Assembly (NCBI GenBank): GCA_945877765.1
Contig: CAMDWQ010000011.1
Span: forward strand, 2,641 to 66,640
From: Candidatus Omnitrophota bacterium
Lineage (GTDB): Bacteria; Omnitrophota; Gorgyraeia; 2-02-FULL-51-18
Length of the DNA stretch: 64,000 bases
Direction: 5' to 3'
In this document: positions 23,714 through 47,818 of the stretch, piece after piece
How the letters are laid out: each line of letters begins with the position of its first letter
How positions within the stretch are numbered: the stretch's first letter is position 1
Notes under the pieces: model-generated
What the model saw: only the letters and a program-made list of their open reading frames with translations
What the model was told of the DNA's origin: nothing
Databases searched by the model: none
Made by a program: the position numbers and the translations under genes

Positions 23714-23725
23714 TGACACCCCTAA

Positions 23726-23850: not shown

Positions 23851-23872
23851 TTATAATAATGACAGTGTAGAG

Positions 23873-26715
<2,843 letters not shown>

Positions 26716-31893: not shown

Positions 31894-32259
31894 ATGCTAA
31901 GTAGGCTATGGATCCGATCTCTTGTCCGGCGAGCGGATCTATGGTATATTTACATTGTAAATATATTGAATGAGATCCGATTCGCTTGGGATGAAGATAA
32001 GAACAAGCTCAACAAAATAAAGCATCATGTTTCTTTCGAAGAAGCCAAGAATGTTTTTTATGATGAATACGCGCTCCAATTTTATGACCCTGAGCATTCT
32101 CACTCAGAAGAAAGGTTTATGCTGCTGGGAATAAGTGATCGGCTTAGAGTGCTCTTTGTCTGTCATTGTTATTTGGAGAAAGATTCTATCATTCGAATAA
32201 TATCCGCACGCCGGGCAACCGCCAAAGAAAAGGCGTACTACGAAGGACAAATAAAATGA
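31894..32259 (+). CDS. brnT: BrnT-family (DUF497) ribonuclease toxin
   Basis: IRFAWDEDKNKLNKIKHHVSFEEAKNVFYD...ERFMLLG matches the BrnT F.WD..K...N..KH.V.F.EA..VF pattern. Confidence 0.65.
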   Translation: MLSRLWIRSLVRRADLWYIYIVNILNEIRFAWDEDKNKLNKIKHHVSFEEAKNVFYDEYALQFYDPEHSHSEERFMLLGISDRLRVLFVCHCYLEKDSIIRIISARRATAKEKAYYEGQIK

Positions 32260-32722: not shown

Positions 32723-34183
32723 TTGAAACTGCTTAAAGCACTCGTTATAGGAATTCTTTTTTTCCAACCGGTCTATGCCTCGCAAGCCGACATTCAAAAT
32801 ATTCCATCGTCCGAATATTTCTCCACCGCTCTCACTGAAATTTCCCAGGCGAAAGAATCGATCTATGTTGTCATGTATCTTGTCTCTTTCGACCCCGCCA
32901 ACCCCAATACCAAAGTCTCCCAGCTTTTAAAAGCGCTGGTCGATGCCAAAAATAGGGGAGTCTGGGTCCAAGTTATTTTTGATCAAACGATTGATTTTGC
33001 GGAAGACCAGCGGCCTGCGGAGGGATATAGAAATAAGAATGCCCCGGCGTTTGAATATTTACGGGCCAATCAGGTGGAGGTTTTCTATGATACCGAAGGG
33101 ACTTATACGCATGCCAAGGCGATTGTCATTGATCGGGAGATTTCGCTATTTGGCAGCAGCAACTGGTCCCGGGCGGCGCTGACTAAAAATAATGAAGTCA
33201 ATGCGATGGTGCGTTCATCCGAATTTGCGCAGGATCTTATTGATCAATGGGGCAAGATTGAACTTCAGCCCAATGTTGCGGTGGTAGCCGCGCCTTCTGT
33301 CAAAATCCCGCGGGATTTTCTGACCAATCCTGCGTTGTTCCAGGAAATGATCTCTCACGGCGACGAACGCGCTTTGGATGTCTATCTTTACCTCTTGAGC
33401 CAGTACCGCCAAACGGCGGATTCAAAAGTGATTCTGGATTACGACGACCTTGCGTCTTCTCTTGCCATGAGCGGTATGGCACCCGTAGATTATCGCCGGC
33501 AGATTACCAAGACCCTTTCAAAGCTAAAGGGAAAATACCGTCTGATTGATTTCCAAAACCCGACTCATGGCCAAAACGCCCAAATCACGCTGAAAGCTCC
33601 GGAGGCCGCCGATTCTTTTGATCTACCACTCACTTACTGGAAATATCACTGGCCCCAAAAACTTTCATTTCCCGCCAAGGTTATGTATCTCATTTTAATT
33701 TCTAATACCGATCTGGCGTCACCCAGTTTTACTATTTCAAGAGAAGGCCTCGCTAATGAATTTTCCATTTCAAAGTCTTTGATTTCAGACGGCACCAGAG
33801 ACTTAAGATTCCAGAACCTGCTCGACATTCAATATTCCCCCATGGACCGCGAAGATTTTTCCGACAGAAAGCCCAATAGCTACACTCCCACCCCGCTGTA
33901 TGACCCGTCAGCCCTTCAAGAATCCATAGCCGCTCTCGGCCAAAAAGAAGGACAGGCCAAACTCGATCGCGCCCTGAATGCCGCCTCCCAGGTTTTCGCC
34001 CAAAACAATCTATCTGCGATCAAATCACTCCTCGACCTCGAATCCCAATACGGCCCCGCCATCATCCACCAAGCCGCCCAAAAAATAGGCGAAAAAAAAT
34101 CCGACAACCCCAAACGATCCATCGCCTATCTAATCGCCACCATCAAAAGCATGGCCCGAATATACCGTACCCCGTCCCCATGA
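32723..34183 (+). CDS. secreted phospholipase D-family (HKD) nuclease-like protein with long C-terminal extension
   Basis: Signal peptide MKLLKALVIGILFFQPVYASQA, then the HKD motif HAKAIVIDREISLFGSSNWS (H.K....D...GS.N). The last codons are supplied by a MITE terminal repeat. Confidence 0.65.
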   Translation: MKLLKALVIGILFFQPVYASQADIQNIPSSEYFSTALTEISQAKESIYVVMYLVSFDPANPNTKVSQLLKALVDAKNRGVWVQVIFDQTIDFAEDQRPAEGYRNKNAPAFEYLRANQVEVFYDTEGTYTHAKAIVIDREISLFGSSNWSRAALTKNNEVNAMVRSSEFAQDLIDQWGKIELQPNVAVVAAPSVKIPRDFLTNPALFQEMISHGDERALDVYLYLLSQYRQTADSKVILDYDDLASSLAMSGMAPVDYRRQITKTLSKLKGKYRLIDFQNPTHGQNAQITLKAPEAADSFDLPLTYWKYHWPQKLSFPAKVMYLILISNTDLASPSFTISREGLANEFSISKSLISDGTRDLRFQNLLDIQYSPMDREDFSDRKPNSYTPTPLYDPSALQESIAALGQKEGQAKLDRALNAASQVFAQNNLSAIKSLLDLESQYGPAIIHQAAQKIGEKKSDNPKRSIAYLIATIKSMARIYRTPSP

Positions 34184-34262
34184 CCCAAAAAGGGACACGT
34201 TAACTCACGAGAGAGCATGGATTTTTTTGTTCTTTTTGACCCGCTCAGGGTTGGGGCATATA
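34167..34262. repeat. partial copy of the 177-bp MITE (left arm plus core only)
   Basis: ccccgtccccatgacccaaaaagggacacgttaac...ggatttttttgttctttttgacccgctcagggttgggg.atatactga matches 55076-55175. The right terminal repeat is absent. Confidence 0.65.
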
Positions 34263-34381: not shown

Positions 34382-34858
34382 TCAAAAGCGCTTCGGCGGT
34401 TCTTCATTTTTGGGTTTATCCTCCACGAGCATTTTGATCGCTTTGAATACAACCTGAAACTGCTGGTCGTATTTTTTCTCCAACTCATCCACGCGGATTC
34501 TTAGGTCTTTGTGAGTGATTGCCAATTCACGTAATTTCATAAATGTGCGCATGATCTGGATATTTACTTGTATAGCCTTCTTACTATTTAAAACGCTGGA
34601 GAGCATCGCCACGCCTTGTTCTGTAAATGCATAAGGGCTTGCGCGGCGAATGCCACCCCAACTTGAAATCACAAATTGTGATTTCAAGTTCTCAAATTCA
34701 TTATTCGTTAGCTGAAACATGAAATCATCTGGAAATCTATCTTTATTACGCTTAACCGCCTGGATCAGTGAACGAACTTCTACATCGTAAAGCTCTGCCA
34801 AGTGGGTACTGAGCATGACTCTTTGGTTTCTTAGTGTAAAAATATATTTTTCTGTCAT
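34382..34858 (-). CDS. ORF6N-domain protein (paralogue 1)
   Basis: ATG at 34858 with AAGGAGGG RBS. LRNQRVMLSTHLAELYDVEVRSLIQAVKRNKDRFPDDFMFQLTNNEFENLKSQFVISSWGG is ORF6N-type. Confidence 0.6.
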   Translation of the reverse strand: MTEKYIFTLRNQRVMLSTHLAELYDVEVRSLIQAVKRNKDRFPDDFMFQLTNNEFENLKSQFVISSWGGIRRASPYAFTEQGVAMLSSVLNSKKAIQVNIQIMRTFMKLRELAITHKDLRIRVDELEKKYDQQFQVVFKAIKMLVEDKPKNEEPPKRF

Positions 34859-35156
34859 AAAACCCTCCTTACCATACAGGACGACACAGACCCCCTTTTT
34901 CGTCAAAAAAATATCAGGATTTTTGCTATCGGTTAACTCATTTCCAACGGAAATTGGAGGTCACAATTTGTGACCTCCAATGTTGGGGTCTGTGGAGGAC
35001 TGCTTCAGGGATTTGAACCGGTCACAATTTGTGACTAGTTCGTTTTGGCCATTGGTCGAGACGCGAGTACAGATGACACATTTTTTCATGGCGGTATTTG
35101 CGCGAGCCGTCCCAACTTGATGTCCCAAATTGGAACATCAAGCCTGCAAAATATCC

Positions 35157-35693
35157 TTACTCTGGCCTCGCGTGAAATCCAATAGTCCTTTTTCGTTTCT
35201 GTTTAAGAGGCTCTTCAATCTCTTTGATCGTTTCGAACACCACTTTAAACTGAGAGTCATATTTCCTCTCAAGTTCTTCGATCTTCTTCTGAAGGTCCTT
35301 ATGATTCAGGATATATTCTTTTAGCTTGGTAAATGTGCGCATAATTTGAATATTTACCTGGATGGCGCGCTTGGAGTTAAGAACCGAGGATAACATCAGA
35401 ATTCCATGCTCAGTAAATACCCTAGGCCTTTTACGAAGGCCGCCCCAACTTGATGTCCCAAATTGGGATATCAAGTTTTTGAACTCCTGTTCACTGAGCT
35501 GAAACATAAAATCCTCCGGGAAGCGATCGGAATTTCTCAAAACATTCCGGTTTAATATACGTGTTTCCACGTCGTAGAGGGCGGCAAGGTCTTTATCAAA
35601 CATTACCTTTTTGCCTCTGATGAAATATATTCTTCTCTCAATCGTGTCATGAGAAAGAAACGTTGAAACCTGGATAGATTTATTTTTTTGCAT
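35157..35693 (-). CDS. ORF6N-domain protein (paralogue 2)
   Basis: ATG at 35693 with GGAGG RBS. IRGKKVMFDKDLAALYDVETRILNRNVLRNSDRFPEDFMFQLSEQEFKNLISQFGTSSWGG aligns with paralogue 1 over its whole length. Confidence 0.6.
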   Translation of the reverse strand: MQKNKSIQVSTFLSHDTIERRIYFIRGKKVMFDKDLAALYDVETRILNRNVLRNSDRFPEDFMFQLSEQEFKNLISQFGTSSWGGLRKRPRVFTEHGILMLSSVLNSKRAIQVNIQIMRTFTKLKEYILNHKDLQKKIEELERKYDSQFKVVFETIKEIEEPLKQKRKRTIGFHARPE

Positions 35694-35821
35694 GGTAAGT
35701 CCTCCTACTCTACTTGACGACACAGACCCCCCTTTTCGTCAAAAAAATATCAGGATTTTTCTATCGGTTAACCTATTTCCAAAGGATTGACCGTCCCGAC
35801 CCAGGCGGGTAGACTGTCTGC

Positions 35822-36214
35822 ATGCCCCAATCCACCTCGAAGAGTCCTGCAACTGACATCATTAGCCTCCAGAAAAAAATCCTCCAATTCCGTGACGCCC
35901 GCGATTGGAAACAATTCCACAATCCCAAAGACGTAGCCCTCTCTCTAGTCTTGGAAGCCACCGAGGTCATGGAACATTTCCAGTGGAAAACTCCGGAAGA
36001 AATTAAAAAATACCTCCAAACCCACACCCCTGACATCGCCGCGGAATTAGCGGATGTTTTTTATTGGGTGCTTTTGATGAGTCATGATCTGGGGATTGAT
36101 ATGGGGGAAGCTCTGGAGAAAAAATTGAAAGTGAATGCATTGAAATATCCCGTCAAAAAAGCCAAGGGCAAGCACAGTAAGTACAATAAGGCATTCAATG
36201 GGAGGGGACGATAA
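35822..36214 (+). CDS. MazG-like nucleotide pyrophosphohydrolase (small all-alpha NTP-PPase)
   Basis: LQKKILQFRDARDWKQFHNPKDVALSLVLEATEVMEHFQWK...ELADVFYWVLLMSHDLGIDMGEALEKKL: the E..E...E..D metal-binding arrangement of MazG/YpjD-like proteins. Confidence 0.55.
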   Translation: MPQSTSKSPATDIISLQKKILQFRDARDWKQFHNPKDVALSLVLEATEVMEHFQWKTPEEIKKYLQTHTPDIAAELADVFYWVLLMSHDLGIDMGEALEKKLKVNALKYPVKKAKGKHSKYNKAFNGRGR

Positions 36215-36218
36215 GCAC

Positions 36219-37037
36219 ATGAATCTCACAAAAATCTCGCAAAAGATTTGGCAAATAGCCGGTCTTGTCGCGTGCGCTTTATTTTTGTTAGGCACTTTGG
36301 CGATTGTTGTTGGCATCGGTTTTGCGGTTTTTCAATATAAAACACATCATGTTAATGGCATTGCGGTAGACCCGATGGAGGACAAGGGAAACCTGAAAGT
36401 CACAGCTGAATATGGCTTGCCTTTGCCATTAGAAGGGTCCGATTTTTATATGATTCCTGTCACGCTTGAAAAGAAAAAACACGGACAAGCGCGGGAAGCG
36501 TTTAGCGAAGTAGCCTATAGAAGTAGGTATGATAGCTATAGTAGCGGCAGTTACTCCTCTTATTCGTGGGGGCCTTATTACAACCTCGTGTTTATCAACA
36601 AGAAAACAGGTGAATCGCGGCCACTTCTTACTCAAAAAGGGTTTATCAATGGCGTTTATTTGCCCGAAAAAAAATACGATAAGAAAGACACTGAAATCAA
36701 ACCAACATTTCTACTGCTTAAGATTGCTACCGCGGACACGAATAATGACGGTGTGATCAACGAAAAAGACGCTTCTGCGGGATTTATTGCCAGCATCGAT
36801 GGGACAAAGCTGACGCAAGTCACACCTGATAATACTCAAATGAAATGGTGGTCTTATGATTTGGCCTCACAAAGACTTTTTGTGGAAATAATTCATGATG
36901 TAAACAATGACAAAGAGTTTGATTGGGATGACCCGCAAACAGTTTTAAGCGTAAACGTTCTCGACCCAAAAATTGCCCAGGAATTTGTTTCGGCAGAAAT
37001 TAAAAATAAAATCGAAGCATTACTGCTTAAAAAATAA
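36219..37037 (+). CDS. hypothetical membrane-anchored protein
   Basis: ATG at 36219 after a GGGAGGGGA RBS. One TM helix (IWQIAGLVACALFLLGTLAIVVGIGFAV), a Ser/Tyr-rich low-complexity stretch (SRYDSYSSGSYSSYSWGPYY) and a DTNNDGVINEKD Ca-binding-like loop. Confidence 0.4.
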   Translation: MNLTKISQKIWQIAGLVACALFLLGTLAIVVGIGFAVFQYKTHHVNGIAVDPMEDKGNLKVTAEYGLPLPLEGSDFYMIPVTLEKKKHGQAREAFSEVAYRSRYDSYSSGSYSSYSWGPYYNLVFINKKTGESRPLLTQKGFINGVYLPEKKYDKKDTEIKPTFLLLKIATADTNNDGVINEKDASAGFIASIDGTKLTQVTPDNTQMKWWSYDLASQRLFVEIIHDVNNDKEFDWDDPQTVLSVNVLDPKIAQEFVSAEIKNKIEALLLKK

Positions 37038-37489: not shown

Positions 37490-40027
37490 GTGGACAAATT
37501 TAATATACTGATCGCTGCTCGCGCCAAACACACTCCGTTCAAAAATTTGGCTTTGGTAAGCCCTTTCGGAATTGTAACCAATCATTGGCTTGTTCTTATA
37601 AACGTTCTGCTTTCATGTGAGGAGGATTTTAGCGATCCTAATATTGATTTATTGAATGAACTGGCTGTGGGTGACTTAATTCAAATTGATGGTAAACGAG
37701 TCTGTTTCGGGGGAATTAGAGAAACGGATCGCGGGCGCTCGATAGGATTTTATGAAACTGGGAAAAAGGGCAAGGCAGGACCATGTTATACATGGTTATC
37801 TGAAAAAGATATCCGGGGAAGAATAGCGCCGTACGCGGGGATGGCCAAAAACCCCCAGCGCTTCACAGGTAAAAAAGCACGAGCCGCAATAGGACACAAT
37901 TTATTCGCAGCTTTACACGGAATCAATGAATTCCAACCGAATATCAAGACTTCATCATTAGTTATAACGGAAAAAAAGTCTTACATAGAGGAATTGCAGA
38001 ATTTAGAAATTCATTTAGCTTATGACGTTAGTACGCTTAAGTTTCCCTTTTGTGAAGCGATCCCTGCTGCGGCATACTCTACCAACAATAAATTTAGTCG
38101 TATAGCGGCTAAGAAGAACGATAATCGACCTCTTTTGCTCAAAATTGTTTCGTCTCCGGAAGTTGGAATAGAGTTATGCCAAAACGATAAAAATATACAA
38201 ACGGTAATTATAGACGGCGAATCAAAAATATTACGAAATTTTCTTGAGCTTAAGAGGATAAAAGAGATAGAGTCAGTAAAAAATATTTACATAATTCTTT
38301 CTAATAACATAGATCAGAAATCACTAAGAGAATTGCAACAGCTAGGTTTCTTTATTTGGAAGTGGAATGAAGAGTTTATTCTAAGCATAGGTACGGAGTC
38401 TTTGCCAGATAATCGTCAAAATGGCAATATCGATACGGGGGCCATTCAGAATAAACTAATCAGTAACCTGTTAAACAAGACATCAGAAATGGTGGAAGTG
38501 GATTACCCTTCCAAGGAAGCAAAAGCCTTAATCAATGAGTATTCAGAGATATTATTCTATTTAAAAGATTTTATCGATGAGCCGCACGCTGGAGAAATTT
38601 TTAGAGAGTTCATTTGCCAGGGTTATGGGTATCGCAGTTTTATACTTTCGCCGCTGGCAGGACTTCCATCCTGCCATGACCGTGTTAATAGATATATCGA
38701 ACAACTAAAGCTCCTTATACCCGTCTTAAAGGAGCTCAATAAAGCCACTGCCTTACACCAAAGATTGGATAGACTAGCGATAGCGATTGATCGGTTTAAA
38801 GATTTATTTTGTCTCGGTGTTAACCAAAAAAATGAAATGATAAAAAAACATCTTCATTCGGAAAGGACCGGGATCGGATTGGTATTAAAGAACTTACCGG
38901 CTAATAGCGTTCTAGATGAATTCGGCAAATTTATCGGCAAAGGCCTTTCATATCGATTTCTAAAGCTCTCCGACTTAAAAAGTTTTCACCCCTTCGATAG
39001 CTTGTTGTTTACTGGGTGGCTGGGAAGCAACCATCCCTATTACTTAAATTGCCCTTTAGCACCTAAGCATTTATATTTCTTGTACGACATAGAGAAAAAA
39101 ATTTATGAAATCATGCAGAGCCGGCAGCAATTGCATAACTTTCCTGAGCCCTTGGAAAGAGTTGCAGCTCTTTTAGATCTAACTCCAAGCGAGGTATTAT
39201 CGCTGGCGCCATCGTTAGCCCCTTCCAACCTTGCTTCAGTTGAGGAATTTGTTAAAAATAAAAGAGAAGTCAATTTAAACGATCTCTATGACGCTATCTG
39301 CTCAAAGAGAATCCCGTCATATTCTGGAACCGGAGAGATCGGAGAAGAATTGCTCCCTTCAAAATGCATTTTTTTTGAAGATGATCAATACGGCTTCTTT
39401 TCTGAAAATTACATAGCCAAAGTGTTGGATAGATCTAAGGAGGAAGTAATCGATAAGGATCTTAGCGTGCTCGCTGAGGGAGATGAGCTTTTGTTTTTGG
39501 AAGACTCCAAGAGAGATTTATTTCAGGTCATGGCTATAGAACTTCATAAAAAAATGCCGGATAGGATAGAAGAAGCAAAGATTTGGAGGGATAGTCTTAA
39601 ACGATTAAAAACAGAAAAGAATTACTCTGTTGAGAAACTTAATTCTGTACTTAGAGAAAATGGAGTTATTCAAGAGATCTCGACTTTGAAGGGATGGGTA
39701 AGTGATAAAGAAATGATAGCACCTCAATCACTTGACCGCCTGATAGACGTTCTCTCGACTCTATTAAATGATGCGACTATAGGGTCTAAAAAGAAATTAA
39801 TCATAACCGCTTGCAGACGAATTCGTGCGTCACATAACATTTTGGGAAGGTATCTGGCGAAACAATTAATTGGATCGTTTAATAAAGGCGCTAACACGGT
39901 ACAGCAAGATTTGGCAGCAAGCGCCGAAGAATTGAGGAAACACGTATATACGCTGCAAATAAATAAATTGTCCGATGACGTTCAGGCTGTTCCGGTATCG
40001 ATTCTTAACAAGGTATTTGAGCTATAA
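37490..40027 (+). CDS. 845-aa protein of unknown function, first gene of the candidate defence operon (DruF/DrmE-like by position and size only)
   Basis: No motif recognised by eye. Its stop (TAA) is directly followed by the ATG of the next gene. Confidence 0.4.
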   Translation: MDKFNILIAARAKHTPFKNLALVSPFGIVTNHWLVLINVLLSCEEDFSDPNIDLLNELAVGDLIQIDGKRVCFGGIRETDRGRSIGFYETGKKGKAGPCYTWLSEKDIRGRIAPYAGMAKNPQRFTGKKARAAIGHNLFAALHGINEFQPNIKTSSLVITEKKSYIEELQNLEIHLAYDVSTLKFPFCEAIPAAAYSTNNKFSRIAAKKNDNRPLLLKIVSSPEVGIELCQNDKNIQTVIIDGESKILRNFLELKRIKEIESVKNIYIILSNNIDQKSLRELQQLGFFIWKWNEEFILSIGTESLPDNRQNGNIDTGAIQNKLISNLLNKTSEMVEVDYPSKEAKALINEYSEILFYLKDFIDEPHAGEIFREFICQGYGYRSFILSPLAGLPSCHDRVNRYIEQLKLLIPVLKELNKATALHQRLDRLAIAIDRFKDLFCLGVNQKNEMIKKHLHSERTGIGLVLKNLPANSVLDEFGKFIGKGLSYRFLKLSDLKSFHPFDSLLFTGWLGSNHPYYLNCPLAPKHLYFLYDIEKKIYEIMQSRQQLHNFPEPLERVAALLDLTPSEVLSLAPSLAPSNLASVEEFVKNKREVNLNDLYDAICSKRIPSYSGTGEIGEELLPSKCIFFEDDQYGFFSENYIAKVLDRSKEEVIDKDLSVLAEGDELLFLEDSKRDLFQVMAIELHKKMPDRIEEAKIWRDSLKRLKTEKNYSVEKLNSVLRENGVIQEISTLKGWVSDKEMIAPQSLDRLIDVLSTLLNDATIGSKKKLIITACRRIRASHNILGRYLAKQLIGSFNKGANTVQQDLAASAEELRKHVYTLQINKLSDDVQAVPVSILNKVFEL

Positions 40028-41746
40028 ATGGAAATACGATTAATACCACCCTATTTAAGTAGCTCGGTTAAAAGCAACGCGGAAAAAAGAACGTTTGCTG
40101 CAATCCAGTTAATTTCTGCGCCAGCTTACTGTTTTCATTCGCTAAATCTGCCTGAGAAAATAAAGAGAAAACCCGAATGCGAAATTGATTTTCTTTTCCT
40201 AAGCGTCAGGGGAATTATGTGTCTTGAGGTAAAGGGTGGATCTGTACGTCGAGTTGACGGGGTGTGGCAATTTGAAAATCGGTTTGGCGAGGTGACAAAG
40301 AAAATCGAGGGCCCATTCGAACAAGTTCAGAACGCGATGTACGCATTAAAACAACGAATAAAGAATAAATATGGAGCTGATTCAAACCTATTGAAATGTT
40401 TATTTGGGTACGGAGTCATATTTCCAGATACTGATTTTAAAGATGCATCAGCCGAATGGGACCTTGAAATTGTATGTGACAAGATTCGATTCAATAGACC
40501 CATTTCTGACTATATAACAGCATTACATGAATATTGGGCTTTAAAGAAACCTCAATCAAGGCCCCTTACGAACAATGAAGTGGATGAGTTGGCTCAATAT
40601 CTGAGGGGTGATTTTCACTGTGTTGTCCCATTAAAAGATTATATCGGAAACATCAACGAAGAGCTCCTGTCTCTAACCGGTGAACAGCTTAGTCTTCTAG
40701 CGGGACTCGACCAAAATCCTAGGCTAATCATTAACGGGCCGGCCGGGAGTGGCAAGACTCTCATGGCTGTAGAGAAAGCTAAATGTGAGGCGGCAAGGGG
40801 ACAAAAAACGCTTCTAATTTGCTCTAGCGATATTCTAGCCGAGCATCTCCAGCATATGTGTTCGGAATATATCAATCTCTCGGTTACAAATATATTTGCG
40901 CTGTTTAAATCAATTCAAACTTGCGGAGATTTATCCGATATAAAGAAACCGATCCGTGAGAATGAATATAAAATAGATTTACCCCTTATTCTCAAACGAC
41001 AAAAGTTGATTGATAGCGCACATCTATACGACTCGATAATAGTTGATGAAGCCCAAGATATTTTAAAAAGTACGTTTCTAGAAGTTTTAAATGGGTGTCT
41101 TAAGGGAGGATTTCAGAACGGTAGATGGACGCTTTTCTACGACAAATTCCGTCAAGCCGGTCTTTACGGTGATTCCGACAGCGGCGTTGCGTCTATTCTG
41201 GAAAAATTCAAGCCAACCCTATTCAATCTAGGTACGAACTGTAGGAATACCAAGAAAATTGCCGAAGAAACGGAAATGATAACGAATTATATTTTCCAGA
41301 AAATCCTTCACGACGGAGGTCGAAAATCTCGGGTTGAGTTTTATAAGGATATTGAAGAAAGGAACAGCACCCTTTTGTCAATTATGTCAGACTTGGCCAA
41401 ACAAGATATTTCCAAGGGTAGACAAATAATATTAACGCTTGAAAATGAAACTAATTTTTTAAATTCGGTGTCAGGGATACACGGTTATAAGTTTCAATCA
41501 TTGTCCAAATTCGACCAATTTAAGTCTGATCAACATCTCAATTTGGTTTGCGAAGCAAAGAGGTTCAAGGGACTTGAGAGTGATATAGTTATTATTCCCG
41601 AAATAAAAAGTTTTGATCAAACGGTGGAGTTATATGTAGCTATGACACGGGCAAAAGCGATGCTTTTTCTACTTATCGATTCCAGCTTGAAGAAGCAATA
41701 TCAAGAGCGCTTTAAACTGTACGTGGAAAGGAAAGTCTTAATATGA
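40028..41746 (+). CDS. NERD-domain + SF1 (UvrD/AAA_19-like) helicase/nuclease
   Basis: N-terminal ECEIDFLFLSVRGIMCLEVKGGSV (NERD-type EVKG motif). Walker A GPAGSGKTLMAV, Walker B IVDEAQDIL, C-terminal YVAMTRAKAMLFLLID (SF1 motif VI). The ATG follows the previous stop with zero gap. Confidence 0.6.
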   Translation: MEIRLIPPYLSSSVKSNAEKRTFAAIQLISAPAYCFHSLNLPEKIKRKPECEIDFLFLSVRGIMCLEVKGGSVRRVDGVWQFENRFGEVTKKIEGPFEQVQNAMYALKQRIKNKYGADSNLLKCLFGYGVIFPDTDFKDASAEWDLEIVCDKIRFNRPISDYITALHEYWALKKPQSRPLTNNEVDELAQYLRGDFHCVVPLKDYIGNINEELLSLTGEQLSLLAGLDQNPRLIINGPAGSGKTLMAVEKAKCEAARGQKTLLICSSDILAEHLQHMCSEYINLSVTNIFALFKSIQTCGDLSDIKKPIRENEYKIDLPLILKRQKLIDSAHLYDSIIVDEAQDILKSTFLEVLNGCLKGGFQNGRWTLFYDKFRQAGLYGDSDSGVASILEKFKPTLFNLGTNCRNTKKIAEETEMITNYIFQKILHDGGRKSRVEFYKDIEERNSTLLSIMSDLAKQDISKGRQIILTLENETNFLNSVSGIHGYKFQSLSKFDQFKSDQHLNLVCEAKRFKGLESDIVIIPEIKSFDQTVELYVAMTRAKAMLFLLIDSSLKKQYQERFKLYVERKVLI

Positions 41747-44700
41747 TCCCAAATCCTTTAAATCATGAACAAGTTAGAACGGATTTGTTGGATTATATGC
41801 GCAAAGAGCTAGTTGGCCCTCAATCAGACGATGAAATTCTTGACGGCGATAACGTGCCTCAGATCGATCACTACATAGCAGGTGTTCTTTACCCTCAATC
41901 TAAAACCGACTCAGAAGATGATCGATTAGCAACTCAGCCTGATATTAGCGAAGAAGATGCAGATATTGCCGATGATCTAGAAACTAAAGTATACGGGTTA
42001 TCCAATATCTATATGCCTGCATCAATGGGTATCAGTTGCCAGCTAGCCATACCAGCCAAAGAAGGTGTTCAATACAAAGTTACGTGCGCCCGGTATGAGT
42101 TACAGAAGACAGAGATCAAGAATGCTAGCGGGCGTTCCACGCATTGGGTGCGCATACCGATTAAGAAAGAGGGTTCAATAACTCTTCAAGAATTGGCGAA
42201 AGGGAAAGTCACCATAGAAATCGAGAAAGGTCTCGAGCTTGTTTGTATTTTTAAACCCGATAAGGGGTACCTTACAGTAAGTTTAGTTAACGAAAATGAG
42301 TACGATGTTTCCGTAGAAGAGAAAGTGAAACCTAGAAAACTAACTCCAAACTGTTTTTTCCAGTCAGAGTTGGTTCTAACCGGTGCCGGCGACGATCATT
42401 TTCTTCCAAGAAAACCGTATGAATGTCCGGATGGCAAAGAACGAACATACGAAATGTTGTTTCGAAATAAGCCTACCTTTGCCATTGGTCATGGCTGCGC
42501 TGCCGACTGGGATAAAAGCCGCTCAAATAGAACGAACTCGGTAAAAACGACTACGTTTCCGGTTGAATCTGTGCCAAGCGTCGATTTTGAAGTTATTCAG
42601 GATAAAAAAATTCTTCAGGTACTGGACATGAAACGACTTTCAGAGTCTCTTCATCAAAAGGAAGAAATTTTGTCTGATTTGCGCCAATTTGCCAAAGAAT
42701 ACGATCTATGGATAGACCGAATCGAGACGAGCGACGTCGACCCGGTATTTTACGACGTTGCTAAAGAAAATATTATTAAATGCAGAATGTCGTTCGAGCG
42801 GATAGAGGCAGGAATTCAAAAGTTAGAGGATGACCCAGAAGTTTTTGAAGCGTTCGTTCTCATGAATAAAGCGATGGTTCTGCAGCGGCTTGGCCATGAC
42901 CCAAAAGAACCAAGCACCTGTCGCTGGAGACCCTTCCAGCTTGCATTTATCTTACTGAGTGTCGTCGGTTTAATTGATGATCAGTCATCGGACAGAAATA
43001 TAGTTGATTTAATTTGGTTTCCTACCGGAGGCGGAAAAACAGAAGCATATCTTGGGATTACAGCTTTCATTATTTTCTACCGAAGAATCAAATATAAAGC
43101 GTTGGGGGGCGGTACTGCCGCAATCATGCGCTACACTTTAAGGCTTTTAACAACTCAACAACTTCAACGCGCCACTAGGCTAATGTGCGCCTGCGAAATT
43201 ATTAGAAAACAAAATTCAATAAGATACGGTAGCGAGGTAATCAGTTCGGGAATTTGGGTAGGGGGCGATACAACTCCCAACACTTCGTCTGTTTATCGAG
43301 AGCAATTAGAAGACGGTGAATTTGTAAAAATTCTTTCAATGTGCCCGTGGTGTGAATCGGCGCTTCAATACAGTAAGAGGACAAATCCGAAAATATATTG
43401 TAAAAATGAAAATTGTAAATTCTCAAAAGGCTTACCAATATTATTTGTGGATGATGATATATACGAGAACCCACCCACTTTCTTGGTTAGCACTGTCGAT
43501 AAATTTGCTAATCTTTCTTTAAAAGCGGACCCAAAAAATAAGAAAAAGGATGCCGCCCGGATATTTGCTGCGGATGCGGGCAACCAAAAAATAGCCCCCT
43601 CCTTAATTATTCAGGACGAATTACATTTAATATCAGGTGCCTTAGGTACTTTAGTTGGATTATTCGAGATCGTTATAGAAGAGTTGTGCTCACTCAAAAA
43701 AATTAAGCCAAAAATTGTCGCAGCGACAGCGACCATAAGAGGAGCGGAGGAACAAACAAAAAATCTTTTCAATAGAGAAGTATTTCAATTTCCATCGCCT
43801 GGGATAAGTATTGAAGATTCGTTCTTTGCCGTGGAAAAAACTTCAAAGGAAAATCGGTTATACGTTGGAGTACAGGCATCTGGGCACACCTTTACGACAA
43901 CAGAAGTCAGGGTATTTTCAGCATTATTACAAGGAATCTATGAAATTAAATCGGCATATGAGGAGGGAAAAACTCCAGAGGAGATGGCTGCCGTGCAGGA
44001 ACTCATAGACCCGTACTGGACGATGATTGCCTATTTCAATAGCGTTAGACAACTAGGTAAGTGTCATAGCCTGCTGGATCAAGATATTGCAACGCAAATG
44101 GTGGAGTTATCAAAGCGATCCGGCTCTCGCAGACGTTTTATCCCGGACAGGGGCATTAGAGAAATGACCGGAACAAGAAAAACGAAAGATATTGCAGAAA
44201 TTTTAGCCGAACTATTTTATCCACTAAATAGCAAGAAAGCGCTTGATATAGTTCTGACCACAAATATGTTTTCCGTTGGGGTAGACATATCGCGTTTGGG
44301 AGCTATGGTAATTACAAGCCATCCAAAAACAAATGCAGAATATATTCAGGCATCCAGTCGGGTTGGCAGAAAATATCCCGGAATTATTTTTACGGTTTAC
44401 GATTTTTCACGATCGAGAGACCGCTCTTACTATGAGAATTTTGTCGGGTACCATCGGGCACTCTATAGGCATGTCGAGGTTTCTAGCTTAACACCTTTTT
44501 CAATGGCGTCTGTAGATAGAGGGATGAAGAGCGTCATTATCTCCTTATTGCGACAAAGATTTCGTTCGATGGGAGTTGATGATTTAAACACACTTTCTGC
44601 AGATAAACGAGACAAGGTGATTGAAGAGATAAGAGGACTGATTCTTAAAAGAGTGAACGCAGTTGATCAATCCGAATTACGTATGGTTACTTTAAAGCTT

Positions 44701-46716
44701 ACCAGTTGGTTTGTAGAGCTAAAAGAATTCTTGTCCTCACGGGCAAACGCAGAATATAAAGAGCTAATCTATAACCCATCTCTGGGCTCGCCGAGGCAGC
44801 CGTTCCAATGGGATGTTTTATACTCAATGAGGAATGTGGATGAAAGCGCCCGAATCAAAGTAGGAGTTATCAATGGTCAAGAAATATGGGATGAGGACAA
44901 ATCGTGGAACGAAATAAGAAAAAATCAATTAATTGTTCCTTTTGGCCCGGGAGCTATTGTTGAGCTCGAGAACTCAAAAAGCGCGCTCGTTTCTAGATGG
45001 CACGGCAAGGGCGACCCGGTAAGCGATATGCCAGATGAACGATTTATTCAACGCCTATCTCGGTTAAGAGTGAAAGAATTAGTAGCTCCGCCATCGGCAA
45101 AACAAAAGCCGATAGGGGCAGTTCTATTTCCCGCATGGGGTTTTTGTAAAAGCTGTAGAAAATTCGGCGAAATAAAAAATACATTTAAATTTGATGCCCG
45201 CAATGGCAAAGAACGGTGGTCTTGTGAGTGTAGTGGAAGGTCAAAATTATCGGACGCTAAAAAATTTATGAATGCAGTCGTGCAAATAAAATTCATCGCC
45301 GTGTGTTCCGACGGGCATATAGACGACTTACCTTGGGGCGAGCTTCTTCATAAAAGCCCTAGCTATATGAATGACGGAGCTCTCCATCAGTTTAAGTACG
45401 AGTCCTTCGGCGGCTCTCTTGGTGAAGAAAGCTTGTCATGTTCATGCGGAATTGCTCCGTTTCGACTCAATCAGTTGAAAAAGGCAATAACGGGACAACT
45501 TTGTAAAAATCGTCCGTTAACGGACTACAGCACGCAAGAAGGCGTTTGCCCTCGTAATATCGAAATGAAGCATAGGGGAGCATCAAGTACGTACTTTCCC
45601 GTGGTTAGAACTTCGATATATTTGCCACCGCAGGATGATGCTGGTCTTAATAAAGTTTTGGTTAGGCTAAGAAACACCTTAGAGGATGCAGGGGGCACAA
45701 TTCCTGAGGATCAAAAAAGAATAATAGTAGAAAATAACCTTATCCAAATTGGTGTTGTTAAAGAGATCGCATGGCCCACATATCTCCGATTTATTGAACC
45801 CGTTGACATCGCTCAGGCGACAAATGTTGACGAAGAGATTAAGTACAGGGAAGAAGAGTATAAAGTATTCTCCGCGCCCGCAGTCAATCAGCAAGTTTTT
45901 CTAAAAGATCTAGTTTTGGATGAGGTTAGCCCAAGCGTATTGCGGTCTAAAAAATATCCTGAAGAAATTTCTGATATGAAATTAATTAAGACCTTAAAGG
46001 AAACTAGGGCAATTCTGGGCTACACGCGAATCTATCCTATCGACTTTGAAGAAGGTGAGGGCGCAGAGGGTAGGCGCGCTGGTATGATTTCATTGATCAA
46101 AAATTATAAGATTCCTGCCATTGAGGTTCGAGGCGAAGGCATATTCTTTAGACTGAATCCAAGCATGATTAGTGATTGGGCAAAAAAATCAAACGTTGTC
46201 AAACGAGTTAGAATTATTAACGAACACGAACGACTCTCGGGCAGACAATATGGAGTTGGCGTAAAAAATGTTACACCTGCTTTTATCTTAATTCACACAT
46301 TAGCCCATGCCTTAATTAGATATTTGGGAATGGAATGCGGTTACGGGACGGCTTCCCTGCGTGAAAGAATATACTGTCATCAGGTTGAAGGAGATATTAG
46401 AATGGCCGGCGTGATGATTTATACTGCATCCGGAGACGCGGCAGGGACTCTCGGAGGGTTAGTCCGGCAGGGCAGGGAAGACCGCTTTCCGACTTTGTAT
46501 AGGAATGCGATCCATTCAATGGATTGGTGCTCTTCTGACCCGCTTTGTATTCAATCCAAAGGGCAAGGAAGAGACGGTTTGAATGTGTCGGCCTGCCATG
46601 CTTGCGCACTATTACCTGAGACTAGTTGCGAGTTTCAAAATGTTTACTTAGATAGAGCGCTTTTAAACGGCACCATTGATGACCCCAAAATTGGTTTTTT
46701 TAAAAGGTATGAATAG
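41743..46716 (+). CDS. 1657-aa SF2 DEAH-type helicase with Zn-ribbons and a Cys-rich DUF1998-like C-terminal domain (DruE/DrmA-DrmB-like)
   Basis: Motif I WFPTGGGKTEAY, motif II IIQDELHLISG, motif VI QASSRVGRK. Zn-ribbon CPWCESALQY...CKNENC. Cys-rich mid region (CKSCRKF...CECSG, CSDGH, CSCG). C-terminal MDWCSSDPLCIQS...ACHACALLPETSCEFQNVYLDRALL. Overlaps the previous gene by 4 nt. Confidence 0.65.
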   Translation: MIPNPLNHEQVRTDLLDYMRKELVGPQSDDEILDGDNVPQIDHYIAGVLYPQSKTDSEDDRLATQPDISEEDADIADDLETKVYGLSNIYMPASMGISCQLAIPAKEGVQYKVTCARYELQKTEIKNASGRSTHWVRIPIKKEGSITLQELAKGKVTIEIEKGLELVCIFKPDKGYLTVSLVNENEYDVSVEEKVKPRKLTPNCFFQSELVLTGAGDDHFLPRKPYECPDGKERTYEMLFRNKPTFAIGHGCAADWDKSRSNRTNSVKTTTFPVESVPSVDFEVIQDKKILQVLDMKRLSESLHQKEEILSDLRQFAKEYDLWIDRIETSDVDPVFYDVAKENIIKCRMSFERIEAGIQKLEDDPEVFEAFVLMNKAMVLQRLGHDPKEPSTCRWRPFQLAFILLSVVGLIDDQSSDRNIVDLIWFPTGGGKTEAYLGITAFIIFYRRIKYKALGGGTAAIMRYTLRLLTTQQLQRATRLMCACEIIRKQNSIRYGSEVISSGIWVGGDTTPNTSSVYREQLEDGEFVKILSMCPWCESALQYSKRTNPKIYCKNENCKFSKGLPILFVDDDIYENPPTFLVSTVDKFANLSLKADPKNKKKDAARIFAADAGNQKIAPSLIIQDELHLISGALGTLVGLFEIVIEELCSLKKIKPKIVAATATIRGAEEQTKNLFNREVFQFPSPGISIEDSFFAVEKTSKENRLYVGVQASGHTFTTTEVRVFSALLQGIYEIKSAYEEGKTPEEMAAVQELIDPYWTMIAYFNSVRQLGKCHSLLDQDIATQMVELSKRSGSRRRFIPDRGIREMTGTRKTKDIAEILAELFYPLNSKKALDIVLTTNMFSVGVDISRLGAMVITSHPKTNAEYIQASSRVGRKYPGIIFTVYDFSRSRDRSYYENFVGYHRALYRHVEVSSLTPFSMASVDRGMKSVIISLLRQRFRSMGVDDLNTLSADKRDKVIEEIRGLILKRVNAVDQSELRMVTLKLTSWFVELKEFLSSRANAEYKELIYNPSLGSPRQPFQWDVLYSMRNVDESARIKVGVINGQEIWDEDKSWNEIRKNQLIVPFGPGAIVELENSKSALVSRWHGKGDPVSDMPDERFIQRLSRLRVKELVAPPSAKQKPIGAVLFPAWGFCKSCRKFGEIKNTFKFDARNGKERWSCECSGRSKLSDAKKFMNAVVQIKFIAVCSDGHIDDLPWGELLHKSPSYMNDGALHQFKYESFGGSLGEESLSCSCGIAPFRLNQLKKAITGQLCKNRPLTDYSTQEGVCPRNIEMKHRGASSTYFPVVRTSIYLPPQDDAGLNKVLVRLRNTLEDAGGTIPEDQKRIIVENNLIQIGVVKEIAWPTYLRFIEPVDIAQATNVDEEIKYREEEYKVFSAPAVNQQVFLKDLVLDEVSPSVLRSKKYPEEISDMKLIKTLKETRAILGYTRIYPIDFEEGEGAEGRRAGMISLIKNYKIPAIEVRGEGIFFRLNPSMISDWAKKSNVVKRVRIINEHERLSGRQYGVGVKNVTPAFILIHTLAHALIRYLGMECGYGTASLRERIYCHQVEGDIRMAGVMIYTASGDAAGTLGGLVRQGREDRFPTLYRNAIHSMDWCSSDPLCIQSKGQGRDGLNVSACHACALLPETSCEFQNVYLDRALLNGTIDDPKIGFFKRYE

Positions 46717-47818
46717 AAAAAATTCTAAACTAAACATAACGGCGGTTGACCTCTTCTGCGGAGCGGGAGGCCTGACGCGCGGCCTGCTTGATTCCGGGAT
46801 CAAAGTTAAAATCGGTGTCGATTTCGATGGACAGTTTAAAGATACATATGAAAAAAATAATCATCCTTCGCGATTCTTGCAATGTGACATTAGAAAACTA
46901 AAAACCAAATATTTGGAAGAATGCCTAAAATTAGAAGAAACAGATTTATTTTTGCTCTCCGCATGTGCTCCGTGCCAACCCTTTAGCCGCCAAAATTCTA
47001 AACATCATTACGATAGACGTAAATCCCTATTGCTAGAAGTAGTTCGAATTCTTGACGAGCTAAAACGTAAGCCCGATTTTTTATTTTTTGAGAATGTTCC
47101 ACATATTAACAGATCTGAAAGGAGCACTGTTCTCAGAAGACTTAGGAAGGCACTTGTCAAAATGGGCTATTCCTTTGATTCGAAAATTGTGGATGCAGCA
47201 ATATATGGCGTCCCACAACGGAGAAAGAGGTTTATTCTAATAGCCGTTAAGAAAAAAATCGCTGGTAACACCGTCCGTTTTCCTGAAGAACTGTTTGGAA
47301 AAGATCGAAATCAGCCATATCGTACAGTGAGAGAGGCCATAGGTGCTTTCCCGCGCATAAGAGCAGGCCAAACTCACGCGCAAGTAGCAAATCATCAAAC
47401 TCAGTCATTGACTACAAAGACTCGGATGCGATTGCTATTAACGCCTAAAAATGGGGGTTCTCGCCGAGATTGGCCCGATCGCGTAAAATTAAAATGCCAC
47501 GAAGAGCATGTTGGGCATTGGGATGTTTACGGTCGAATGAAATGGAATGAGCCCAGCCCCACTCTTACGTGTCGATGCACGTCAATTTCAAATGGGCGTT
47601 TTGGACACCCAACTCAGCTGAGAGCAATTTCTTTGCGTGAAGCAGCAGCGCTGCAAACATTTCCGAACGATTATCAATTTTACGGAAGTTTTAAAGCTAT
47701 AGCAATGCAAGTAGGTAATGCCGTTCCCGTTCTGTTGGCTGAAGCATTTGGTAAGCATTTTATTGAAATCGGCAACGGTAAGTCCTTTGCCACAAGGACG
47801 GAGAAGAATACCGAATAA
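46709..47818 (+). CDS. DNA (cytosine-5)-methyltransferase
   Basis: Motif I DLFCGAGG, IV PCQPFS, VI FFENVP, VIII QRRKRFILIA, X GNAVPV. The ATG at 46709 overlaps the upstream gene by 8 nt. Confidence 0.85.
   Translation: MNRKNSKLNITAVDLFCGAGGLTRGLLDSGIKVKIGVDFDGQFKDTYEKNNHPSRFLQCDIRKLKTKYLEECLKLEETDLFLLSACAPCQPFSRQNSKHHYDRRKSLLLEVVRILDELKRKPDFLFFENVPHINRSERSTVLRRLRKALVKMGYSFDSKIVDAAIYGVPQRRKRFILIAVKKKIAGNTVRFPEELFGKDRNQPYRTVREAIGAFPRIRAGQTHAQVANHQTQSLTTKTRMRLLLTPKNGGSRRDWPDRVKLKCHEEHVGHWDVYGRMKWNEPSPTLTCRCTSISNGRFGHPTQLRAISLREAAALQTFPNDYQFYGSFKAIAMQVGNAVPVLLAEAFGKHFIEIGNGKSFATRTEKNTE

What the first reader, a model, noticed from the sequence alone, without database searches (positions are those of the whole stretch)
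40028..41746. NERD nuclease-like domain fused to an SF1 UvrD-type helicase inside the operon (Nhi-like?)
The N-terminal 150 aa carry the NERD hallmark (EIDFLFLSVRGIMCLEVKGG). The remainder has Walker A/B (GPAGSGKT, IVDEAQD) and SF1 motif VI (YVAMTRAKAML). Single-chain nuclease-helicase fusions (Nhi-type) act as stand-alone anti-phage proteins. Here one is embedded between the unknown 845-aa gene and the giant helicase, suggesting either a composite system or a module swap.
Basis: partly seen in the sequence, partly recalled or inferred. Interest (0 to 1): 0.6.

Follow-up and report, generated by a model that had tools for sequence, protein, structure and literature searches.

The report
NERD nuclease-helicase inside a DISARM operon
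The gene is a real nuclease-plus-helicase fusion that is a conserved part of an apparently undescribed variant of the DISARM anti-phage system, where it seems to take the place of the usual DrmC nuclease.

Summary
The ORF at 40028-41746 (+, 572 aa) is real. It has an N-terminal NERD / PD-(D/E)xK nuclease domain and a compact SF1 helicase core. Every catalytic residue is invariant in 82 relatives that share only 28-44% identity.

They are DISARM genes, not Druantia:
- a DrmE-family protein (37490-40027);
- a DrmA-DrmB fusion (41743-46716);
- a C5 methyltransferase (~46709-47818).

All four genes abut or overlap.

The NERD-helicase ("NH") is not an Nhi orthologue and not a chance insertion. Of its 80 nearest relatives in species-representative genomes, 54 sit beside DrmA and DrmB. 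Its tree follows gene order. Its pairwise distances track DrmA, DrmB and DrmE (r 0.89-0.95) far better than they track the methylase (0.61).

In an independent DrmA-first metagenome sample of 48 complete loci, 27 had NH and no PLD, 10 had PLD (DrmC) and no NH, 11 had neither and none had both (Fisher p = 5e-5).

I found no paper or annotation model that names NH as a DISARM component. The best reading is a DrmC-less, class-2-like DISARM variant in which NH supplies the nuclease. That mechanism is inferred, not shown.

The parts
40028..41746 (+). NERD-SF1 helicase gene ('NH'), 572 aa; the finding itself
   Evidence: ORF and translation. Pfam NERD above cut-off. PADLOC RTasNERD-Hel 2.2e-45, full length. 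AF2 model with mean pLDDT 86.9.
40076..40366 (+). NERD / PD-(D/E)xK nuclease domain (aa 17-113); catalytic candidates E19, D54, E67, K69, Q99
   Evidence: Pfam PF08378 covers aa 17-113. These residues are invariant in a 35-sequence alignment and in 81 of 82 relatives, the exception being one divergent A-B-NH sequence. The model's alpha-beta-beta-beta-alpha-beta order places D54 on strand 2 and E67-x-K69 on strand 3.
40673..41743 (+). Compact SF1 helicase core (aa ~216-572): Q-motif T217/Q220, Walker A aa 237-244, Walker B DEAQD aa 340-344, motif III D372, motif IV NCRN aa 404-407, motif V KGLE aa 514-517, motif VI YVAMTRA aa 536-542
   Evidence: Invariant columns. PDB sequence hits to HelD, SLFN11, UvrD1, PcrA and Upf1. 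Foldseek hits to SLFN11/14, Upf1, Dna2, nsp13, RecD2 and UvrD.
37490..40027 (+). DrmE-family protein, 845 aa; its stop codon directly abuts the NH start
   Evidence: NCBIfam NF038316 DrmE_fam 7.9e-73, full length. Pfam DrmE_C 1.4e-12. PADLOC DrmE 4e-9. All 35 proteins upstream of NH in related loci hit the same model.
41743..46716 (+). DrmA-DrmB fusion, 1657 aa (SF2 YprA-family helicase plus DUF1998/MZB module); its start overlaps the NH stop by 4 nt
   Evidence: PADLOC DrmA 1e-204 (aa 293-1039) and DrmB 1e-66 (aa 1055-1645). NCBIfam DISARM_DrmAS 871 bits and DrmB_fam 373 bits. Pfam Helicase_C and MZB.
46709..47818 (+). C5 cytosine DNA methyltransferase (DrmMII-like). The mechanical ORF starts at TTG 46676; the likely start is ATG 46709, which overlaps the DrmAB stop.
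   Evidence: Pfam DNA_methylase 6.7e-57. PADLOC MTase_II 1.8e-88, DruM 1.2e-78 and DrmMII 2.1e-51. Junction sequence.
32723..34183 (+). Separate PLD-family protein, 486 aa, 3.3 kb upstream; probably not part of the system
   Evidence: Pfam PLDc_2 5.8e-24. HAKAIVID motif. NCBIfam DISARM_DrmC_I reaches only 57 bits against a cut-off of 133. It is separated from the operon by two antisense ORF6N genes and is absent from the closest related loci L003 and L005.

Best explanation
The gene encodes an active nuclease-helicase: a NERD-type PD-(D/E)xK nuclease fused to a minimal SF1 ATPase/translocase. It is an integral subunit of a class-2-like DISARM system made of a DrmE-family protein, NH, DrmA-DrmB and a C5 methyltransferase. 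This system lacks the canonical PLD nuclease DrmC.

Proposed mechanism:
1. The methyltransferase marks host DNA as self.
2. The DrmA-DrmB helicase module, here a single polypeptide, engages unmethylated incoming DNA, with DrmE as a required partner.
3. NH supplies the DNA-cutting activity that DrmC would otherwise be assumed to supply. It uses its SF1 motor to move along the DNA that DrmAB engages or unwinds, and its NERD domain to cleave it.

Shown here: the domain identities, conserved active sites, operon structure, and the recurrent, co-diverging association with DrmA/B/E that excludes DrmC.

Inferred: that NH is the effector nuclease, that it acts on DNA, and that it depends on DrmAB/DrmE.
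For: Domains and active sites. NERD is above the Pfam cut-off. E19, D54, E67, K69 and Q99 are conserved in 81 of 82 relatives at 28-44% identity, and the core helicase-motif residues (K243, D340, E341, Q343, D372, N404, R406) in all 82. The AF2 model is confident (pLDDT 86.9) and has an SF1 fold.

Operon. The junctions are TAAATG and ATGA, and the methylase start overlaps the DrmAB stop. The same abutting or overlapping gene calls occur in relatives at about 40% identity.

Recurrence. All five closest non-identical homologues (P0002-P0006) lie in a DrmE-NH-DrmA(B) arrangement. Of the 80 nearest relatives in species-representative genomes, 54 have DrmA/DrmB adjacent, and 32 of those are in the order E-NH-A-B.

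Co-divergence. The NH tree separates by gene order. Pairwise distances of NH correlate with DrmA, DrmB and DrmE at Pearson 0.90, 0.89 and 0.95. The obligate partners DrmA-DrmB give 0.97. NH against the methylase gives 0.61.

Exclusivity. In a DrmA-first metagenome sample, 48 loci had at least 2 kb on both sides. The counts were NH+PLD+ 0, NH+PLD- 27, NH-PLD+ 10 and NH-PLD- 11, Fisher p = 5e-5. The four post-DrmB PLD genes I checked match NCBIfam DISARM_DrmC_I. Across the 56 NH-linked DISARM-type loci plus the window, the only convincing PLD-motif ORF was the window's own distant one.

Background. In tested DISARM systems DrmC is dispensable and the effector is unknown (bioRxiv 10.1101/2021.12.28.474362).
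Against: There is no experimental evidence for any NH-type DISARM. About a quarter of the nearest NH relatives lie outside DISARM: one clade, mostly Lachnospiraceae and other Clostridia, sits near HerA-like and WYL genes, and a related NERD-helicase cluster accompanies UG34 reverse transcriptases (PMC9226505). The module can therefore work in other settings or alone. DrmE-A-B cassettes with neither NH nor PLD are common (11 of 48 loci; a L. plantarum plasmid), so a dedicated nuclease gene may not be needed at all. The correlation and the Fisher test are not corrected for shared ancestry. Both locus samples were ranked by similarity to the window's proteins, so frequencies are not population estimates. 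A separate PLD gene lies 3.3 kb upstream in this window and could act in trans.
Confidence: 0.55

Rival explanations
1. NH is an autonomous single-gene defence protein, working like Nhi or AbiO, that is merely embedded in the DISARM operon for co-regulation or co-transfer. It senses and degrades phage DNA or replication intermediates on its own.
For: NH relatives occur without DISARM genes in about 26 of 80 genome loci, often with no conserved neighbour. Embedding of independent defence genes within DISARM, BREX and RM operons is documented (bioRxiv 10.1101/2024.01.29.577857). PADLOC detects similarity to Nhi and AbiO in the helicase region.
Against: NH keeps fixed positions (between DrmE and DrmA, or right after DrmB) with overlapping or abutting reading frames, down to about 30% identity. 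It co-diverges with DrmA/B/E almost as tightly as DrmA does with DrmB. It is mutually exclusive with DrmC, which an independent passenger gene would not be. The Nhi model matches only the helicase part.
Confidence: 0.22
2. NH is an accessory motor or sensor, not the killing nuclease. Its SF1 ATPase would remodel or load the DrmAB complex, as a second helicase does in class 1 DISARM (DrmD) or in ARMADA II (ArmD). The NERD domain would serve mainly in DNA-end or structure recognition.
For: YprA-helicase systems repeatedly carry a second helicase, such as DrmD or ArmA/ArmD (bioRxiv 10.1101/2025.09.15.676423). E-A-B cassettes without any nuclease gene exist. In the one locus I checked in the PLD-bearing group, the upstream gene is a DrmD SNF2 helicase, so NH could equally be the counterpart of DrmD.
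Against: The full PD-(D/E)xK catalytic set (E19, D54, E67, K69) is conserved in 81 of 82 sequences, which argues for catalysis rather than binding alone. The exclusivity is with the PLD nuclease.
Confidence: 0.15
3. The upstream PLD protein (32723-34183) is this system's DrmC acting in trans. The locus would then be an ordinary class 2 DISARM with an extra gene.
For: The protein has a PLD domain with an HxKx4D motif and weak hits to DrmC models.
Against: Its 57 bits fall well below the 133-bit NCBIfam DrmC cut-off. It is twice the usual DrmC length. It is separated from the operon by two antisense genes and two other genes. There is no PLD gene in the closest relatives L003 and L005, and no convincing PLD-motif ORF in any other of the 56 NH-linked loci.
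Confidence: 0.05

Closest known systems
Class 2 DISARM (Bacillus paralicheniformis type: DrmE-DrmA-DrmB-DrmC-DrmMII)
   Same: It has a DrmA-type SF2 helicase, a DrmB DUF1998 module, a DrmE-related protein and a C5 methyltransferase in one co-oriented operon.
   Different: The operon has no DrmC PLD gene and carries a NERD-SF1 helicase between DrmE and DrmA. DrmA and DrmB are fused. DrmE matches the broader DrmE_fam model but not the canonical equivalog (51 bits against a cut-off of 250). PADLOC's type II definition requires DrmC (PMC9252829).
ARMADA type II ArmD (RelE-like RNase fused to a GajB-like UvrD helicase, in a YprA-helicase system)
   Same: It is an SF1 helicase with an N-terminal nuclease domain, encoded in the same operon as a YprA-family helicase and a methyltransferase (bioRxiv 10.1101/2025.09.15.676423).
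   Different: The nuclease fold differs (NERD PD-(D/E)xK against a RelE RNase). The YprA clade differs (DISARM-like against ARMADA). Similarity to GajB models is only weak and C-terminal.
UG34 reverse-transcriptase-associated NERD-helicase (Mestre et al. cluster 485; PADLOC RTasNERD-Hel)
   Same: This is the best full-length profile match (2.2e-45, aa 4-549). The NERD-plus-helicase architecture is the same (PMC9226505).
   Different: No reverse-transcriptase domain was found among the window ORFs I scanned. The partners here are DISARM proteins.
Nhi / AbiO single-protein nuclease-helicase immunity
   Same: It has the nuclease-plus-SF1-helicase concept in one chain and a defence context.
   Different: The Nhi and AbiO models match only the helicase part (aa 298-550 and 298-453, 39 and 34 bits). 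NH is mostly operonic with DISARM genes rather than stand-alone.
Dna2 / SLFN11-type enzymes (nuclease domain plus compact SF1 helicase core)
   Same: These are the top structural matches to the model: SLFN11 9e-16, Upf1 6.5e-12, Dna2 1.5e-11. Dna2 also combines an N-terminal PD-(D/E)xK nuclease with an SF1 motor (my own knowledge).
   Different: They are eukaryotic, with 12-16% identity and no homology in the nuclease part shown here. The resemblance is one of architecture, not family membership.

Membership tests
NERD (PF08378) / PD-(D/E)xK nucleases | Match to the NERD profile above the curated cut-off | tested here: met
   38.9 bits against a cut-off of 22.1, aa 17-113
NERD (PF08378) / PD-(D/E)xK nucleases | Catalytic D...(D/E)xK residues present and conserved | tested here: met
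   D54 and E67-V-K69, plus E19 and Q99, are invariant in the 35-sequence alignment and in 81 of 82 relatives
NERD (PF08378) / PD-(D/E)xK nucleases | Restriction-endonuclease-like alpha-beta-beta-beta-alpha-beta fold of the N-terminal domain | tested here: inconclusive
SF1 helicases | Motifs Q, I, II, III, IV, V and VI in order | tested here: met
   Q220, GxAGxGKT, DExQD, D372, NCRN, KGLE and YVxxTRA are invariant or nearly so. PDB profile hits to HelD, UvrD1, PcrA and Upf1.
UvrD/Rep/PcrA subgroup (SF1A) | UvrD-specific profiles above cut-off and 1B/2B accessory domains | tested here: inconclusive
   UvrD_C_2 23.9 bits (cut-off 27.4) and AAA_19 21.6 bits (cut-off 25.1). The core is only about 370 aa. 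Foldseek ranks SLFN11/14, Upf1, Dna2 and nsp13 above UvrD. The motif V/VI wording (KGLE, TRA) is UvrD/HelD-like.
Nhi (nuclease-helicase immunity) | Full-length match to the Nhi profile, including its nuclease domain | tested here: not met
   PADLOC Nhi matches only aa 298-550, at 39 bits
Nhi (nuclease-helicase immunity) | Acts as a stand-alone gene | not testable with these tools
   Genomic context argues against it: 54 of 80 relatives are adjacent to DrmA/B
DISARM | DrmA helicase | tested here: met
   PADLOC DrmA 1e-204. NCBIfam DISARM_DrmAS 871 bits, just under the 950-bit equivalog cut-off.
DISARM | DrmB (DUF1998) | tested here: met
   NCBIfam DrmB_fam 373 bits against a cut-off of 240. Pfam MZB. 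Here it is fused to DrmA.
DISARM | DrmC PLD nuclease in the cassette | tested here: not met
   No HxKx4D motif in any operon protein. The only PLD gene lies 3.3 kb upstream and is below the DrmC cut-off.
DISARM class 2 | C5 methyltransferase DrmMII | tested here: met
   Pfam DNA_methylase 6.7e-57. PADLOC DrmMII 2e-51, with generic MTase_II scoring higher.
DISARM class 2 | DrmE | tested here: inconclusive
   The DrmE_fam subfamily model is met (246 bits against 80). The canonical DISARM_DrmE equivalog is not (51 bits against 250, C-terminal part only).
Druantia (DruE) | The large helicase matches DruE | tested here: not met
   All 15 PADLOC families matched by the 1657-aa protein are DrmA, DrmB or DpdJ; none is DruE
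DRT UG34 system | Adjacent UG34 reverse transcriptase | tested here: not met
   The NERD-helicase profile matches, but no RT domain appears among the neighbouring ORFs scanned

The most novel reading that the evidence does not exclude
DrmE-NH-DrmA-DrmB-methylase, together with its E-A-B-NH and UvrD-like-A-B-NH relatives, is a distinct and widespread class of DISARM. In it a NERD-SF1 nuclease-helicase is the obligate DNA-degrading effector and evolutionarily replaces DrmC. Because DrmC is dispensable in the tested systems and the DISARM effector is unknown, this class would be the first DISARM form with an identifiable, required nuclease. It would give a direct experimental handle on how DISARM destroys foreign DNA.
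Probability: 0.4. Interest if true: 0.7.

Novelty: new variant of a known kind. Interest (0 to 1): 0.6.

Why it matters
DISARM is widespread, but its killing step is unresolved. The only annotated nuclease, DrmC, is dispensable in both tested classes (bioRxiv 10.1101/2021.12.28.474362). Detection tools define class 2 by DrmA, B, C, E and MII (PMC9252829), so loci like this one would fail that type II definition.

A conserved NERD-helicase that co-diverges with DrmA/B/E and excludes DrmC does two things. It defines a variant that current DISARM definitions do not include. It also points to a concrete, mutable candidate effector.

The result also corrects the annotation of this window from Druantia-like to DISARM-like. 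It adds DISARM to the systems that use this modular nuclease-helicase family, which has about 4,500 clusters at E <= 1e-30 and also accompanies UG34 reverse transcriptases and HerA-like genes.

Tried and rejected
- **Druantia reading:** rejected, because there are no DruE matches.
- **Nhi orthology:** rejected, because only the helicase part matches.
- **Upstream PLD gene as DrmC:** considered and judged unlikely.
- **Word-indexed homologue search with DrmE:** found only the protein itself.
- **Metagenome scan with the DrmE alignment:** impossible, because DrmE is too divergent for a search pattern. I used a DrmA alignment instead.
- **IMG/VR viral contigs:** no NH relative found.
- **Promoter and terminator scan of 35.7-49.5 kb:** no enrichment over shuffles, so uninformative.
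- **Original DISARM paper (Ofir et al. 2018):** not held in the library. Its supplement could not be checked for NERD-helicase variants.
- **Exact-sequence cluster look-up:** gave no source names. The host was inferred from DnaA homologues instead.
- **Literature searches** for NERD with DISARM, DrmA or DUF1998: these found NERD only in the unrelated TALON system and in HEC-02.
- **DrmE structure:** could not be modelled with an alignment, because the tool description says locus-derived sequences are not accepted.
Full report
The ORF at 40028-41746 (+) encodes 572 aa and has no competing ORF. All four quoted motifs are present at aa 52-71, 237-244, 338-344 and 536-546. Pfam NERD matches aa 17-113 above its gathering score (38.9 bits against 22.1). 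ResIII is above its cut-off, and DEAD, UvrD_C_2, AAA_19, PhoH and AAA_30 are just below theirs. A profile of 35 family members matches solved SF1 helicases: HelD 6.8e-14, SLFN11 2.1e-13, then UvrD1, PcrA and Upf1.

**The neighbours are DISARM, not Druantia.**
- The 845-aa protein (37490-40027) is a DrmE-family protein. NCBIfam NF038316 gives 246 bits against a cut-off of 80, full length. Pfam DrmE_C gives 1.4e-12.
- The 1657-aa protein (41743-46716) is DrmA fused to DrmB. PADLOC gives DrmA 1e-204 over aa 293-1039 and DrmB 1e-66 over aa 1055-1645, with no DruE match. NCBIfam gives DISARM_DrmAS 871 bits and DrmB_fam 373 bits.
- The next gene is a C5 methyltransferase.
- The four genes are packed without gaps. 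The DrmE/NH junction reads TAAATG. NH and DrmAB overlap by ATGA. The DrmAB stop overlaps the probable methylase ATG at 46709.
- No operon protein has a PLD HxKx4D motif.
- The operon has 38-43% G+C against 45-48% in the flanks.

**The NERD-helicase family ("NH").** NH has 562 homologues at E <= 1e-5 among the scored candidates. The closest non-identical ones share only 39-44% identity. An exhaustive profile search finds 4,501 50%-identity representatives at E <= 1e-30, and the best 150 are all about 530-620 aa.

In a 35-sequence alignment, E19, D54, E67, K69 and Q99 of the nuclease domain are invariant, as are all SF1 motifs. Across 82 relatives the nuclease residues hold in 81, and the core helicase-motif residues hold in all 82.

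An AF2 model is confident (mean pLDDT 86.9, pTM 0.73). Its N-terminal domain has the alpha-beta-beta-beta-alpha-beta order expected of a PD-(D/E)xK nuclease. The helicase part, about 370 aa, is a bare two-RecA-domain core. Foldseek ranks SLFN11/14, Upf1, Dna2, nsp13 and RecD2 ahead of UvrD. So "SF1" is secure, while "UvrD-type" is only approximate.

**Genomic context, starting from NH.** The five closest homologues (P0002-P0006) all lie in a DrmE-NH-DrmA(B) arrangement. Where the contig extends far enough, a C5 methylase lies nearby. A scan of species-representative genomes returned 80 loci at 28-35% identity from many phyla.

By tblastn and by clustering the ORFs I called, 54 of the 80 have DrmA and DrmB adjacent. 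Counting NH genes, including the window, L003 and L005, the arrangements are:
- DrmE-NH-A-B: 34;
- A-B-NH: 21, often preceded by a UvrD-like helicase and an Hsp70-like gene;
- other DISARM-linked orders, including two NH paralogues around A-B: 8;
- no DISARM genes nearby: 26, some near HerA-like or WYL genes.

All 35 proteins upstream of NH match NCBIfam DrmE_fam. Across the 56 NH-linked DISARM-type loci plus the window, the only convincing PLD-motif ORF is the window's own distant one.

**Co-divergence.** A neighbour-joining tree of NH separates the E-NH-A, A-B-NH and non-DISARM groups into clades. The table gives pairwise-distance correlations.

| Pair | Pearson r |
|---|---|
| NH vs DrmA | 0.90 |
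| NH vs DrmB | 0.89 |
| NH vs DrmE | 0.95 |
| DrmA vs DrmB (obligate partners) | 0.97 |
| NH vs methylase | 0.61 |

Shared host ancestry inflates all of these values. The methylase serves as an internal control.

**Genomic context, starting from DrmA.** A metagenome scan with a DrmA alignment returned 80 loci. I labelled the ORFs with my own HMMs and a PLD motif. Of these loci, 48 had at least 2 kb on both sides of the DrmA-DrmB pair.

| | PLD present | PLD absent |
|---|---|---|
| NH present | 0 | 27 |
| NH absent | 10 | 11 |

Fisher's exact test gives p = 5e-5. The four post-DrmB PLD genes I checked match DISARM_DrmC_I, and the one upstream gene I checked in that group is a DrmD SNF2 helicase. 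NH and DrmC are therefore alternatives. Cassettes of DrmE-A-B with neither gene also exist, so NH is not indispensable to every DrmE-type system.

**Comparison with the literature.** DISARM is defined by drmA, drmB and drmC. Class 2 adds drmMII and sometimes drmE. DrmC is dispensable in both tested classes (bioRxiv 10.1101/2021.12.28.474362). PADLOC's type II definition requires DrmA, B, C, E and MII (PMC9252829).

The YprA-family survey names PLD as the DISARM nuclease. It mentions NERD only for the rare TALON system, and it states that DISARM is the branch where helicase and DUF1998 are consistently split (bioRxiv 10.1101/2025.09.15.676423).

The best PADLOC model for NH comes from NERD-helicases next to UG34 reverse transcriptases (PMC9226505). 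NH has no NCBIfam model, and annotators call plasmid copies "AAA family ATPase" or "NERD domain-containing protein". I found no paper that names a NERD-helicase as a DISARM component. The original 2018 paper and its supplement were not available.

**Mechanism.** Most likely (0.55), NH is an integral nuclease-helicase subunit of a DrmC-less, class-2-like DISARM.
1. The methylase marks self DNA.
2. DrmAB, with DrmE, engages unmethylated incoming DNA.
3. NH translocates along that DNA and cuts it.

The identities, conserved active sites, operon structure, co-divergence and exclusivity are shown. The division of labour is inferred. The rivals are:
- an autonomous embedded Nhi-like gene (0.22);
- an accessory motor or sensor rather than the effector (0.15);
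- an ordinary class 2 system using the upstream PLD gene in trans (0.05).

**Setting.** The window carries dnaA, dnaN, gyrB and an intein-bearing gyrA. DnaA is 69-74% identical to Candidatus Omnitrophota proteins, so the host is probably an uncultured Omnitrophota bacterium.

tRNA-Glu (30636-30710) follows gyrA directly. A defence island follows it:
- a BrnT toxin;
- a PLD protein;
- two antisense ORF6N genes;
- a MazG-like gene with an unknown partner;
- the DISARM-NH operon;
- a DpnI-like methyl-dependent endonuclease.

**Caveats.** Both locus samples are the 80 best matches to window proteins, so the proportions are not population frequencies. The gene calls in the loci are my own simple ORF calls. 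The statistics ignore phylogenetic non-independence. No function has been tested.

Noticed in passing
window 41743-46716; L003 11752-16761; L005 4632-9614: DrmA and DrmB are fused into one 1657-1669 aa protein in the window and its two closest relatives. My ORF calls show them as separate genes in nearly all of the other loci examined. A recent survey states that DISARM is the one YprA branch where the two are consistently split.
   Followed up: partly
window 47956-48744 (+): A DpnI-like methyl-directed (G-m6A-TC type) restriction endonuclease sits directly after the DISARM methylase (Pfam DpnI 1.6e-72 plus DpnI_C). This pairs a modification-dependent enzyme with a modification-blocked system, and implies the host lacks Dam methylation.
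   Followed up: no
window 26802-30629 (+): gyrA is interrupted by an intein with a LAGLIDADG homing-endonuclease domain (Intein_splicing and LAGLIDADG_3 hits inside a 1275-aa GyrA).
   Followed up: no
window 30636-30710 and 30.7-49 kb: tRNA-Glu lies 7 nt after gyrA and marks the start of a defence island. The island holds a BrnT toxin (31894-32259), a 486-aa PLD protein (32723-34183), two tandem antisense ORF6N genes matching PADLOC candidate PDC-S05 (34382-35723), and a MazG-like gene (35822-36214) overlapping an unknown 279-aa gene (36198-37037). No integrase was found among the ORFs I scanned.
   Followed up: partly
window 34161-34255 and 55071-55166: A direct repeat of about 95 nt (83-100% identical) lies 20.9 kb apart and brackets the ORF6N genes, the DISARM-NH operon, the DpnI-like gene and several housekeeping-looking genes. 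It could be an att-like scar or a dispersed intergenic element.
   Followed up: no
window 31670, 47817, 48700, 48915, 48988, 53304: A family of short intergenic hairpin repeats (GGGACACGTACC ... GGTACGTGTCCC, REP/MITE-like) clusters around the 3' end of the operon and the DpnI-like gene.
   Followed up: no
L011, L021, L028, L031, L036, L045, L047, L052, L059, L061, L064, L074, L075: In these NH-type loci an AIPR / MzaE-like abortive-infection gene (about 680 aa) sits just upstream of DrmE, and in 12 of the 13 a C5 methylase lies upstream of it. This suggests a larger conserved unit, M-AIPR-E-NH-A-B.
   Followed up: partly
L020, L024, L032, L040, L046, L050 and many of L097-L169: A second architecture recurs: an Hsp70-like gene, a UvrD-like helicase (600-850 aa), DrmA, DrmB and NH, followed in several loci by a methylase and Vsr. 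It has no DrmE.
   Followed up: partly
L116, L131, L135, L138, L151, L158, L162, L173: A third architecture recurs: DrmE-DrmA-DrmB-NH, with an enlarged DrmB of about 780 aa.
   Followed up: no
L053, L082, L084, L066, L067, L070; plasmid NC_017792.1 (L086): Some loci carry two NH-family genes around DrmA-DrmB. The second copy is usually 360-430 aa, too short for the full NERD-plus-helicase architecture, and is followed by an unannotated gene of about 520-600 aa. Deinococcus gobiensis plasmid P4 is a cultured example.
   Followed up: no
L091 12490-12822 and window 35822-36214: A MazG-like gene lies next to the NH-type DISARM cassette both in the window (upstream) and in one distant relative (downstream of the methylase). 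With only two cases, this may be coincidence.
   Followed up: no
window 22001-24000: G+C drops to 0.36 around dnaN and the dnaA-dnaN region, possibly the replication origin.
   Followed up: no
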